This document shows, one piece after another, positions 31,774-33,168 of a stretch of 64,000 nucleotides of DNA; positions within the stretch are counted from its first letter, which is position 1; every line of letters begins with the position of its first letter. The notes below the pieces were generated by a model. It did no database searches. It worked only from the letters and a program-made list of their open reading frames with translations, and was not told the DNA's origin. The position numbers and the translations under genes are program-made. The stretch is from Candidatus Gottesmanbacteria bacterium UBA6580 (GTDB lineage: Bacteria > Patescibacteriota > Microgenomatia > UBA10105 > UBA927): NCBI GenBank assembly GCA_002433895.1, contig DJJA01000003.1, positions 9,950-73,949 of the forward strand, given 5' to 3'.

Positions 31774-33168
31774 TCAACGGATTTTAGCGCCTACCGGCAT
31801 TCCTTCTGCGGAAACAAATTGAGGCTTTGTATCAGCGCCATCAACTGCCAGTATCATCCCCTGACTTTCTTCATTCATCATTTTGCGCGGCGCAAGATTG
31901 GTAATGAAAAAAAATTGCTTACCGGAAAAATCCTCGGATGTATAACCAAAACCCCGTACCCCGGTAAATATTGTCCGCGGCTTTTCTTCCCCGACATCAA
32001 CGACGAGCCGGATGAGCTTTTCACTCCCCTCTTTATTTGTAGCTTCAAGCACTTTCCCGACACGTAACTCAACACGGGCAAACTCATCAATGGAAATTGT
32101 CTTTCCTGATGCTGGTTTTGGGTAATCAAAAAATGAGTATTGTGTTGTTACTCCGATCGCGTTCCGTACCTGCGTCATCGTCTGTATGGCAATCGAGAGG
32201 GCGCGCTCCTGCCCTCGCGCCAGTATGTCCCTGACTAATTGAGGGTTACTTTTCAGTTCATCGTATGCCTTTCGTGCGGCACCAAAATATGCCATAAGGC
32301 TATCAAACAAATATTCTTTCACCTCAACATCAGACACCTTTCCTTCCTTATATTGTCCCTTAAGTGCTGCGACCTTGACGGGGTCACCAAAAAAATCGAG
32401 ATACGTAAATACCATGTTGCCTTCAATATGCCCTGGGTCTGTCGCGTGCTTCCGGGTGGGATCGGTGAACGTTCCCATAACTTGTTTTCGGATCACATCT
32501 TCTGACTCAAACATAGATATAACGTTACCGAGTGATTTACTCATCTTCCGCTGTCCATCTGTCCCCAACACCACTGCGACTTCTTCCGGGATAAACGCTT
32601 CAGGAAGCTTAAACACATTTTTCTTATAAATCTTATTAAAATGTCCGGCGATATCCCGCGTGATTTCTATATGCTGCTTCTGATCCTTACCCACCGGCAC
32701 CAGGTCCGCCTGATACAAAAGGATGTCGGCTGCCATCAGCATCGGATAACTGAATAACCCTACATTGATGTCATCCTCCTCAACCTCTTTCTGGAGTTTG
32801 TCTTTATAGGCATGCGCTCGTTTCAATAATCCCAAAGGGGTGACGTTATTAATAATCGACTGGCATTCGGTATGCATCAATACGTCCGACTGACGGAAAA
32901 ATATAATGCGGTCAAACTGCTCCACCGTCATAAATCCCTTGAGAAGTGCGAGCTCATTTAACACTAAGGTTTCAATATTATGTTGGAGCTGGCTTTTATC
33001 CTGAATTGTAGTAAGCCCATGCAAATCCGCGACCATAAGATACGTCTCATTTGATTTGGCGAGCTCTATAAACTGGCGTACTGCTCCCAAGTAGTTGCCA
33101 ATATGAAGACTCCCATCTCCGCTGGGCGTGATACCGGACAGCAACCGTTTATTTGTTGGCATATTCAT
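31774..33168 (-). CDS. trpS: Tryptophan--tRNA ligase fused to a C-terminal Myf/Trbp111-type tRNA-binding domain
   Basis: 464 aa; class I HIGN (HIGNYLGA) and KMSKS; [24 protein letters not shown] matches TrpRS; C-terminal ~110 aa RVGKVLEA...ESQGMILA matches the OB-fold tRNA-binding domain of MetRS/CsaA. Confidence 0.8.
   Translation of the reverse strand: [464 protein letters not shown]

What the first reader, a model, noticed from the sequence alone, without database searches (positions are those of the whole stretch)
31774..33168. TrpRS fused to a Myf/Trbp111/CsaA-type tRNA-binding OB-fold
A TrpRS core (HIGN/[29 protein letters not shown]) of normal length is followed by a ~110 aa C-terminal domain whose motifs ([31 protein letters not shown]) match the appended tRNA-binding domain normally found on MetRS, PheT or free-standing CsaA/Trbp111. 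To my knowledge this is an atypical domain combination for a bacterial TrpRS. It may compensate for reduced tRNA affinity in a minimal genome.
Basis: seen in the sequence. Interest (0 to 1): 0.5.

Follow-up and report, generated by a model that had tools for sequence, protein, structure and literature searches.

The report
TrpRS with fused tRNA-end-binding domain
This gene encodes a normal bacterial tryptophanyl-tRNA synthetase that has absorbed the small tRNA-3'-end-binding protein gene that used to sit next to it. This is a lineage-specific, uncharacterised version of a trick already well known from other tRNA synthetases.

Summary
Window 31774-33168 (minus strand) is one uninterrupted 464-aa ORF. 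It has a complete bacterial-type TrpRS (aa 1-349; TIGR00233 above its cut-off; HIGN and KMSKS present), a variable 8-aa linker, and a complete Trbp111/MetRS-C-type OB domain (aa 358-464; PF01588, E 1e-19; about 40-50% identical to Aquifex Trbp111).

The fusion is not an artefact. All 120 best homologs carry it, and 25 species-level genomes of Candidatus Gottesmanbacteria (CPR, Microgenomates) encode it.

Sister genomes keep the same OB module as a separate ~111-aa gene between trpS and ftsH, or lack it. So the fusion arose by read-through into a neighbouring gene. A distant TrpRS clade (P0214 group) also carries the fusion.

The OB domain is as conserved as the catalytic core. It keeps most residues that Trbp111 uses to grip the tRNA 3'-CA end. 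Like the core, it contains no tryptophan.

The likeliest role is a tethered tRNA-3'-end catcher that lowers the Km for tRNA, as in MetRS; this is inferred, not shown. A deacylase role is unlikely, because 2 of 3 catalytic residues are missing.

The "minimal-genome compensation" idea is not supported, because close relatives and most CPR TrpRS lack the domain. Interest is moderate to low: a new variant of a known theme.

The parts
31774..33168 (-). Whole trpS-OB fusion ORF (464 aa plus stop)
   Evidence: ORF; the exact sequence is in public collections on 5 contigs; all 120 best homologs share the PF00579+PF01588 architecture.
32122..33168 (-). Bacterial-type TrpRS core, aa 1-349, ending ...[11 protein letters not shown]
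   Evidence: TIGR00233 264.5 bits; colinear with 2el7 residues 2-327. Foldseek TM 0.85-0.90 normalised to solved TrpRS; in split relatives TrpRS stops exactly after the homologous ...YSFFxY.
33094..33105 (-). HIGH signature, variant H22-I-G-N25
   Evidence: G24 and N25 invariant, H22 at least 90% conserved in alignment A1.
32533..32547 (-). KMSKS signature, K208-S212
   Evidence: K208, M209, S210, K211 invariant; the loop has low pLDDT, as expected for the mobile KMSKS loop.
32098..32121 (-). Linker PKPASGKT (aa 350-357), derived from the former trpS stop, intergenic spacer and 5' end of the OB gene
   Evidence: split relatives; 34% mean identity, 0 of 8 columns conserved; length varies by more than 20 residues among homologs; low pLDDT.
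31777..32097 (-). Trbp111/MetRS-C-type tRNA-binding OB domain, aa 358-464
   Evidence: PF01588, E 1.1e-19; aligned to 1pyb residues 6-110. AF2 pLDDT above 85 for the domain; Foldseek TM 0.80-0.86 to Trbp111, MetRS-C and 2cwp over their whole length; 81% mean identity across 120 homologs against 78% for the core.
31855..31899 (-). L45-loop motif [15 protein letters not shown] (aa 424-438), with predicted 3'-CA pocket residues A426, P427, R428, M430, M431, S435, M438
   Evidence: mapped onto Trbp111 K73, P74, R75, I77, F78, S82, M85 (Juru et al. 2024, PMC11286949). R428, S435 and M438 are invariant in 25 of 25 fused relatives.
32017..32022 (-). L12-loop E383-K384, equivalent to Trbp111 E32-K33, which anchor C75
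   Evidence: K in 24 of 25 fused relatives.
33173..33179 (-). Shine-Dalgarno AAGGAGG in front of the trpS ATG. The start overlaps the btpA stop (ATGA).

Best explanation
The gene encodes the housekeeping bacterial-type tryptophanyl-tRNA synthetase of a Gottesmanbacteria-like CPR bacterium. A complete Trbp111/MetRS-C-type OB module is tethered to its C-terminus by a short, variable, probably flexible linker.

Origin (shown by comparison): in the ancestor the OB protein was a separate ~111-aa gene lying between trpS and ftsH. Loss of the trpS stop and spacer fused the two reading frames. The fused form was then fixed in one sub-clade.

Mechanism (inferred from homology): like Trbp111 and the MetRS C-domain, the OB module captures the single-stranded 3'-terminal CA of mature tRNA with modest affinity. 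It holds tRNA close to the enzyme and hands the acceptor end to the catalytic site. This would lower the apparent Km for tRNA-Trp and possibly assist product release. Specificity for tRNA-Trp stays with the TrpRS core. The module keeps the N- and C-terminal segments that form the Trbp111 dimer interface, so it may also pair across the TrpRS dimer or between dimers; this was not tested.
For: Architecture and reality. The fusion is present in all 120 best homologs from independent sources and in 25 GTDB species genomes.

Origin: split relatives end TrpRS at the homologous ...YSFFxY*. A separate OB gene starting M(V)KDxIxFxDFxKLDLRVGKV follows 9-76 nt downstream (L022, L026, L036, L038, L042) or overlaps the trpS end (L033), or lies about 1 kb downstream (L028, L032, L037, L046), always upstream of ftsH. 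An NJ tree of the cores puts most fused forms in one clade and most split or absent forms in a sister clade.

Other fusion lineages: P0214 with P0284-P0289 has a core only 37% identical to the window protein and sits among ~327-aa CPR TrpRS. The fragments P0179 and P0253 are divergent fused forms.

Selection: the OB domain is as conserved as the essential core (81% against 78% mean identity), while the linker is not (34%). The whole fused protein and all 120 homologs contain no Trp, against about 6 expected. Free-standing OB genes carry a conserved Trp (10 of 12) that is Phe in the fused forms. The appended domain is therefore evolving as part of TrpRS.

Function: of the five Trbp111 residues whose mutation impairs tRNA binding (R75, K33, S82, M85, F78), four are identical here (R428, K384, S435, M438). 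R, S and M are invariant in 25 of 25 fused relatives. Juru et al. state that fusion of this OB fold to aaRSs raises local tRNA concentration and reduces Km (PMC11286949).
Against: There is no biochemical evidence for any TrpRS-OB fusion.

F78 (stacks on C75) is Met here, and K73 is Ala.

The OB fold recognises the universal CA end, so it gives no tRNA-Trp specificity. It must also release the same 3' end that the active site needs.

The domain is dispensable in close relatives: it is absent between trpS and ftsH in L027, L031 and L034, and absent within 4 kb in L041 and L045.

The geometry of the OB domain relative to the TrpRS dimer is unknown. The inter-domain part of the AF2 model has low confidence, and only a monomer could be modelled.
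Confidence: 0.6

Rival explanations
1. The appended OB domain is a cis-acting aminoacyl-tRNA deacylase (proofreading module), as recently shown for the Trbp111-like OB folds of T. brucei MCP1 and yeast Arc1p.
For: It is the same OB family, and MCP1 and Arc1p hydrolyse Ala-tRNA (PMC12021450). About one third of close relatives also carry one or two N-terminal YbaK/ProX-type editing domains on the same TrpRS, so this enzyme lineage recruits tRNA-proofreading-type modules.
Against: The three residues each essential for MCP1 activity (K326, R331, S335, equal to Arc1p K269, R274, S278 and Trbp111 K73, F78, S82) are A426, M431, S435 here. Only 1 of 3 is kept. The fused family is A in 20 of 25 and M, L or I in 25 of 25 at the first two positions. 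MCP1 accommodates only small amino acids. The authors say it is unclear whether stand-alone Trbp111-type domains are enzymes at all.
Confidence: 0.07
2. The domain mainly serves protein-level roles rather than tRNA capture: extra dimerisation or oligomerisation, stabilisation, or CsaA-like chaperoning.
For: The Trbp111 N- and C-terminal interface segments are retained. In MetRS this module is responsible for dimerisation. CsaA proteins share the fold.
Against: TrpRS is already an obligate dimer through its catalytic domain (established for class Ic enzymes). Similarity to CsaA is weak (TIGR02222 33 bits against a cut-off of 119.65; 22-27% identity). The residues most conserved in the fused family are those of the tRNA 3'-CA pocket.
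Confidence: 0.12
3. The domain acts after catalysis. It shields the labile ester of Trp-tRNA-Trp, or retains and hands off the charged product (for example to EF-Tu), rather than recruiting uncharged tRNA.
For: Juru et al. note that Trbp111 tolerates 3' adducts and could accommodate and protect aminoacyl-tRNA and aid exit or turnover. The pocket residues are conserved.
Against: This is purely speculative, and there are no data for any aaRS fusion. It is not exclusive of the main explanation. A bulky indole side chain may not fit a pocket that, in MCP1, takes only small residues.
Confidence: 0.1
4. The fusion is an artefact: an assembly chimera, a frameshift, or a mis-called stop joining two separate genes.
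For: Separate adjacent genes do exist in relatives. One relative (L044) shows a probable frameshift, and L033 has overlapping frames.
Against: The reading frame is uninterrupted in the window. The identical protein is found on 5 contigs from four sources. The same architecture occurs in 120 of 120 best homologs and 25 species genomes assembled independently. The fused domain has a specific sequence signature (loss of Trp, GFGY insertion) absent from the free genes.
Confidence: 0.01

Closest known systems
C-terminal Trbp111-like domain of MetRS (E. coli, P. abyssi 1MKH, N. equitans 5H34; TIGR00399 metG_C_term)
   Same: It is the best-scoring non-TrpRS relative (95.6 bits to metG_C_term; PDB 38li at 79 bits). 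It is the same ~110-aa module at the C-terminus of a class I synthetase, with the same NLAPRKM...S.GM loop. The presumed role is the same: a non-specific tRNA-affinity enhancer.
   Different: The host enzyme is TrpRS (class Ic, an obligate dimer through its catalytic domain), not MetRS (class Ia, dimerised by this module). The score is below the metG_C_term cut-off of 116.65. The origin here is a recent, traceable fusion with a neighbouring gene.
Aquifex aeolicus Trbp111 (1PYB, 8VTZ; 8VU0 is the tRNA complex)
   Same: It aligns end to end (residues 6-110 of 111; about 40-50% identity). Foldseek TM is 0.80-0.82. Six of nine 3'-CA contact residues are identical, including R75, K33, S82 and M85. 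The free-standing ancestor genes in sister genomes are direct counterparts of Trbp111.
   Different: It is covalently tethered to an enzyme. F78 is Met and K73 is Ala. There is a one-residue insertion (GFGY) where Trbp111 has KY-Y.
EMAPII-like C-terminal domain of eukaryotic TyrRS (human, 1NTG)
   Same: It is the sister class Ic synthetase, with an OB fold of the same superfamily appended at the C-terminus (E 2e-9).
   Different: EMAPII-like domains are ~170 aa, with an extra sub-domain that mimics the dimer partner. The domain here is the short, dimer-type 107-aa module (TM to the target only about 0.5). The acquisition is independent, and no cytokine role is expected.
Arc1p / T. brucei MCP1 OB-fold deacylases
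   Same: Same OB family; binds the tRNA CCA end.
   Different: The K/R/S catalytic triad is not conserved (A/M/S here). There is no GST-like domain or basic linker. It is fused in cis rather than acting as a scaffold.
CsaA export chaperone
   Same: Same fold and size (Foldseek TM about 0.8).
   Different: Sequence similarity is weak (33 bits against a cut-off of 119.65; 22-27% identity). It is not a member.

Membership tests
Bacterial-type tryptophanyl-tRNA synthetase (class Ic; NCBIfam TIGR00233 trpS) | Whole-protein profile score above the curated cut-off | tested here: met
   264.5 bits against a cut-off of 176.75. The narrower equivalogs NF009207, NF008923 and NF008922 fall below their cut-offs, so it belongs to the general trpS family rather than to those sub-models.
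Bacterial-type tryptophanyl-tRNA synthetase (class Ic; NCBIfam TIGR00233 trpS) | Class I signatures HIGH and KMSKS | tested here: met
   H22-I-G-N25 and K208-M-S-K-S212. G24, N25, K208, M209, S210 and K211 are invariant across 46 sequences down to 32% identity.
Bacterial-type tryptophanyl-tRNA synthetase (class Ic; NCBIfam TIGR00233 trpS) | Full-length colinearity and fold of solved bacterial TrpRS | tested here: met
   aa 7-340 align to 2el7 residues 2-327 at E 1e-65. The AF2 model matches solved TrpRS with TM 0.85-0.90 normalised to the target.
Bacterial-type tryptophanyl-tRNA synthetase (class Ic; NCBIfam TIGR00233 trpS) | Trp-binding specificity helix (YPxLMAADIL with Met and Asp; B. stearothermophilus M129 and D132, numbering recalled from the literature) and the GxDQxxH motif | tested here: met
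   Y141, P142, L144, M145, D148, I149 and G160, D162, Q163, H166 are invariant in alignment A1. The mapping to Bs numbering is from memory.
Bacterial-type tryptophanyl-tRNA synthetase (class Ic; NCBIfam TIGR00233 trpS) | Charges tRNA-Trp with tryptophan | not testable with these tools
   Needs an aminoacylation assay. No second TrpRS gene is present in the 64-kb window, but the rest of the genome is unseen.
Trbp111 / MetRS-C-type tRNA-binding domain (Pfam PF01588 tRNA_bind, 'Myf' OB family) | Profile match above the gathering score | tested here: met
   70.7 bits against 27, E 1.1e-19, profile positions 1-92 of 96.
Trbp111 / MetRS-C-type tRNA-binding domain (Pfam PF01588 tRNA_bind, 'Myf' OB family) | Complete ~110-aa module: OB barrel plus the N- and C-terminal segments that form the dimer interface | tested here: met
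   It aligns to 1pyb residues 6-110 of 111. The domain model (pLDDT above 85 over the barrel) matches 2cwp, 8vtz, 5h34, 1mkh and 3ers over about 110 columns with TM 0.79-0.86.
Trbp111 / MetRS-C-type tRNA-binding domain (Pfam PF01588 tRNA_bind, 'Myf' OB family) | Residues of the tRNA 3'-CA pocket (Trbp111 E32, K33, K73, P74, R75, I77, F78, S82, M85) | tested here: met
   The window has E383, K384, A426, P427, R428, M430, M431, S435, M438. Six of nine are identical. Four of the five residues whose mutation impairs binding are identical; F78 is Met. K73 contacts tRNA through its backbone carbonyl. R, S and M are invariant in 25 of 25 fused relatives.
Trbp111 / MetRS-C-type tRNA-binding domain (Pfam PF01588 tRNA_bind, 'Myf' OB family) | Binds tRNA through its 3' end; forms a homodimer | not testable with these tools
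   Needs binding assays (FP, ITC, AUC) and a multimer model or structure.
CsaA export chaperone (TIGR02222) | Profile score above the cut-off | tested here: not met
   33.3 bits against 119.65. NF007496 scores 26.6 against 171.
EMAPII-like domain (AIMP1, Arc1p-C, eukaryotic TyrRS-C) | OB fold followed by an extra ~60-aa pseudo-dimer sub-domain (~170 aa in total) | tested here: not met
   The protein ends with the 107-aa module. Matches cover only the OB part of the 164-174-aa targets (TM to the target 0.49-0.57).
OB-fold aminoacyl-tRNA deacylase (T. brucei MCP1 / yeast Arc1p) | Catalytic K326/R331/S335 triad; each residue is essential | tested here: not met
   The equivalent positions are A426, M431 and S435. 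Only Ser is retained.

The most novel reading that the evidence does not exclude
In this CPR lineage TrpRS has become a hub that collects tRNA-3'-end-handling modules: the OB domain at the C-terminus and, in about one third of close relatives, one or two YbaK/ProX-type domains at the N-terminus. The OB domain would then not be a simple affinity enhancer. It would be part of a post-transfer quality-control or product-protection device for Trp-tRNA-Trp, for example by presenting the charged 3' end to an editing site in cis or trans, or by hydrolysing or shielding it through residues different from the MCP1 triad. That would be the first proofreading-type apparatus described for a TrpRS, an enzyme generally considered not to need editing.
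Probability: 0.1. Interest if true: 0.65.

Novelty: new variant of a known kind. Interest (0 to 1): 0.35.

Why it matters
Appended Trbp111/EMAPII-type domains are a classic example of how synthetases gain tRNA affinity, but they have been studied on MetRS, PheRS-beta, eukaryotic TyrRS and scaffold proteins, not on TrpRS.

This lineage offers a natural series within one synteny block (trpS-[OB]-ftsH). The OB is absent, a separate gene about 1 kb away, a separate adjacent gene, fused, or fused with added YbaK domains. A distant TrpRS clade also carries the fusion. That makes it a clean system for measuring what tethering a 3'-CA-binding OB fold does to a synthetase, compared with supplying it in trans.

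It also shows a fused domain being remodelled to its host: it lost its only Trp, so the enzyme that charges tRNA-Trp needs no Trp itself.

The practical consequence is small. Annotation as tryptophan--tRNA ligase is correct.

Tried and rejected
(1) I looked in the window for a second TrpRS, a free-standing tRNA_bind gene or a YbaK gene by phmmer with --max against all stop-to-stop ORFs. There were none.

(2) I looked for MetRS or PheT in the window, to ask whether MetRS in this genome lacks its usual C-domain. Neither is present among the 20 window ORFs scanned; the only other synthetase found is a 749-aa class Ia enzyme at 39542-41791 without an OB domain.

(3) I tested whether the upstream genes are functionally linked to trpS. 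These are btpA and a 504-aa ORF with weak TrpD similarity. They accompany trpS only in the two closest relatives (L001, L002), so no link is supported.

(4) The deacylase hypothesis was rejected on the catalytic triad.

(5) CsaA and EMAPII membership were rejected.

(6) A fold search with the full-length model returned only TrpRS chains. A separate model of the C-domain was needed.

(7) Five literature searches found no paper describing or testing a TrpRS-Trbp111 fusion. The only trace is one figure-legend sentence in PMC5370408.

(8) The NJ tree has no support values. One fused sequence (L014) falls in the split clade, and one OB-less sequence (L027) falls in the fused clade. I do not claim a strictly single fusion event.
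Full report
**Observation.** Window 31774-33168 holds a single 464-aa ORF on the minus strand. The frame is uninterrupted through the proposed domain junction. The ORF has a strong AAGGAGG ribosome-binding site, and its ATG overlaps the stop of the upstream btpA gene.
- Pfam places tRNA-synt_1b (PF00579) at aa 8-295 (E 1.8e-57) and tRNA_bind (PF01588) at aa 368-458 (E 1.1e-19; 70.7 bits against a gathering score of 27).
- NCBIfam's trpS equivalog TIGR00233 scores 264.5 bits, above its cut-off of 176.75. The C-terminus matches the MetRS C-terminal models (metG_C_term 95.6 bits) far better than CsaA (33 bits).
- Against PDB sequences, aa 7-340 are colinear with complete bacterial TrpRS structures such as T. 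thermophilus 2el7. aa 357-463 are colinear with the whole of Aquifex Trbp111 (1pyb residues 6-110). No solved TrpRS carries the extra domain.

**Structure.** An AlphaFold2 model of the full protein has mean pLDDT 83. Confidence is high for the Rossmann and helical domains and for residues 360-464. It is low for the KMSKS loop and for residues around 341-359.
- The full model matches solved TrpRS with TM 0.85-0.90 normalised to the target.
- A separate model of aa 341-464 has a disordered first 16 residues and pLDDT above 85 for the barrel. It matches P. horikoshii 2cwp, Aquifex Trbp111, N. equitans and P. abyssi MetRS-C, and E. coli YgjH over their whole ~110-residue length (TM 0.79-0.86).
- It matches EMAPII-type domains only over their OB half.

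The appended module is therefore the short, dimer-type Trbp111/MetRS-C form, not the long EMAPII form.

**Is the fusion real, and how widespread is it?**
- The exact protein occurs on five public contigs.
- All 120 best homologs (70-98% identity; NCBI, JGI, ENA and Logan assemblies) have PF00579+PF01588. 37 of them also carry N-terminal PF04073 (YbaK/ProX).
- A scan of one genome per GTDB species returned 80 loci. I re-analysed them with phmmer on stop-to-stop ORFs.
- 46 loci belong to the same TrpRS clade. Nearly all are named Candidatus Gottesmanbacteria (Microgenomates group) or generically Patescibacteria. The 'uncultured Gammaproteobacteria' labels on binchicken MAGs look like placeholder names.
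- Among the 46, 25 encode the fusion: 15 as TrpRS-OB and 10 as YbaK-TrpRS-OB.
- Six have the OB module as a separate 110-125-aa ORF immediately downstream of trpS.
- Four have it about 1 kb downstream.
- Five lack it: L027, L031, L034, L041, L045.
- One (L044) looks frameshifted, and five are cut by contig ends.
- The 34 more distant TrpRS loci (42-48% identity; Peregrinibacteria, Gracilibacteria, Verrucomicrobia and others) have no OB domain.

**Origin.**
- In the split genomes TrpRS ends ...GLTNxYSFFxY-stop. The window protein continues from the same point...[25 protein letters not shown].... The downstream gene begins M(V)KDxIxFxDFxKLDLRVGKV after a 9-76-nt spacer containing stop codons.
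- The domain boundary is therefore exact: core aa 1-349, linker 350-357, OB 358-464.
- The order trpS-[OB]-ftsH-5'-3' exonuclease is conserved: ftsH lies downstream in 33 loci and the exonuclease in 26.
- An NJ tree of the cores (no support values) separates a mostly fused clade from a mostly split or absent clade, with two exceptions.
- This is a classic gene-neighbour-to-fusion event.
- An exhaustive HMMER search with the C-domain against 1.84 billion representatives found that its nearest relatives outside the family are free ~110-aa proteins and MetRS C-termini. It also found a fused TrpRS group (P0214 and six relatives, 448-450 aa) whose core is only 37% identical to the window protein. 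That group is nested among ordinary ~327-aa CPR TrpRS of the Pacebacteria/Saccharimonadales type.
- Divergent fused fragments also turned up (P0179, P0253).

The fusion is therefore found in at least two distant TrpRS clades and has probably arisen more than once.

**Evidence that the appended domain is functional.**
- Across the 120 homologs the OB domain is as conserved as the essential catalytic core (81% against 78% mean identity to the window protein). The linker is not conserved (34%; no conserved column) and varies in length by more than 20 residues.
- The window protein and all 120 homologs contain no tryptophan, where about 6 would be expected from the window's composition.
- The free-standing OB genes have a conserved Trp (10 of 12...ARW-YKP...). 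At that position the fused forms have Phe (...RGFGY...; 24 of 25 are Trp-free). After fusion the domain was therefore brought under the same avoidance of the cognate amino acid as the TrpRS core. Mukai et al. noted that avoidance for CPR TrpRS.

**Mechanism.** The 2024 co-crystal structure of Trbp111 with tRNA showed that this OB fold does not bind the tRNA elbow. It captures the 3'-terminal C75-A76 in a preformed pocket built from E32, K33, K73 (carbonyl), R75, I77, F78, S82 and M85. R75A, K33A, S82A, M85A and F78A each impair binding. The Kd is about 3 uM (PMC11286949).
- Mapping through the HMMER and MAFFT alignments gives E383, K384, A426, P427, R428, M430, M431, S435 and M438 in the window protein.
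- Arg, Ser and the second Met are invariant in 25 of 25 fused relatives, and Lys is present in 24 of 25.
- The same paper summarises earlier work showing that fusion of this fold to synthetases raises local tRNA concentration and lowers Km. Its modest affinity allows hand-over to the catalytic site.

I therefore consider a tethered, non-specific tRNA-3'-end catcher the most likely function (confidence about 0.6). Every step after 'the pocket is conserved' is inference.

**Rivals.**
- Deacylase. A 2025 study found that the homologous OB folds of MCP1 and Arc1p deacylate Ala-tRNA using a K/R/S triad in which each residue is essential (PMC12021450). Here the triad reads A/M/S, so that mechanism is unlikely. 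The YbaK domains on relatives keep a proofreading-related role from being excluded.
- Structural or chaperone role. This is possible, but CsaA similarity is weak and TrpRS already dimerises through its core.
- Artefact. This is excluded by the independent assemblies.

The suggestion that the domain compensates for weak tRNA affinity in a minimal genome is not supported by the distribution. Equally reduced sister genomes, and most CPR lineages, manage without the domain or with it in trans.

**Comparison with what is known, and novelty.** OB modules of this family appended to synthetases are textbook for MetRS, PheRS-beta and eukaryotic TyrRS, and occur on some LysRS (for example PDB 4up7). A TrpRS host is not described in the searchable literature. 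[quoted passage not shown] The architecture has been in sequence databases since 2015, automatically annotated as tryptophan--tRNA ligase. I rate it a new variant of a known kind and of moderate-to-low interest (0.35). Its main value is as a natural split/fused/absent series for testing what tethering a 3'-CA-binding OB fold does.

Noticed in passing
Relatives only: L001 3512-5392, L003, L006, L007, L009-L011, L013, L015, L019; proteins P0010, P0021, P0113; P0091, P0097, P0100 and P0111 (777-788 aa; two N-terminal copies read in P0091 and found in L038): About one third of the closest homologs carry one or two N-terminal YbaK/ProX-type domains (PF04073) in front of TrpRS-OB. These domains match the ProRS INS domain and YbaK only weakly (E 1e-7 to 1e-6, far below cut-offs). 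YbaK-TrpRS without the OB also occurs (L039, L040), as does P0376 in the distant CPR group. An editing-type domain on a TrpRS is unexpected and may be more interesting than the OB fusion. The window protein lacks it, and the window has no free YbaK gene.
   Followed up: partly
window 31774-33168 and all of P0001-P0120: There are no tryptophan residues in the 464-aa protein or in any of its 120 homologs (about 6 expected). The conserved Trp of the free-standing OB genes (ARW-YKP) is Phe in the fused domains (RGFGY). The appended domain thus adopted the cognate-amino-acid avoidance of TrpRS.
   Followed up: yes
window 33995-35509 (-) and 33165-33998 (-): Directly upstream of trpS, in the same orientation, are a 504-aa ORF and a BtpA-family TIM-barrel gene. 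The 504-aa ORF has no Pfam hit and only a weak TrpD (anthranilate phosphoribosyltransferase / glycosyltransferase family 3) match (E 1.2e-7, 31 bits against a cut-off of 199). The pair accompanies trpS only in the two closest relatives (L001, L002), so a link to Trp metabolism is not supported.
   Followed up: partly
P0075 (745 aa; relative, not in window): One homolog has an N-terminal Asp/Glu racemase domain (PF01177) fused to TrpRS-OB. This is another sign that this trpS locus readily absorbs neighbouring genes, or else a gene-calling read-through.
   Followed up: no
L008 1077-1406: A genome with the fused TrpRS-OB also has an extra free-standing 110-aa tRNA_bind ORF about 2.6 kb upstream of trpS. 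Fusion therefore did not always remove the free copy, or there were two paralogs.
   Followed up: no
L003-L006, L008, L010, L013, L016-L018, L020, L022, L030, L032, L033, L041, L043: MAGs titled 'uncultured Gammaproteobacteria bacterium' (binchicken co-assemblies) carry Gottesmanbacteria-type TrpRS, and several of them also the trpS-ftsH-exonuclease synteny. The organism names look like placeholders or mislabels.
   Followed up: no
window 39542-41791 (+): A second synthetase gene: a 749-aa class Ia enzyme (tRNA-synt_1 plus Anticodon_1; Val/Ile/Leu-type) with no appended OB domain.
   Followed up: no
window 36714-37166 (-), 36272-36344 (+), 37911-37985 (+), 38472-39332 (+), 21996-23711 (-): Other features noted: a 150-aa protein with a eukaryote-style RRM_1 domain (E 6e-25); two tRNA-Met(CAT) genes 1.6 kb apart; a XerC/D-like tyrosine recombinase; and an ATP-dependent (archaeal/eukaryotic-type) DNA ligase.
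   Followed up: no
L033 5010-5041 and L044 4809-4948: Two relatives have the TrpRS and OB reading frames overlapping in different frames. These could be sequencing frameshifts in fused genes, or genuine intermediates between the split and fused states.
   Followed up: no
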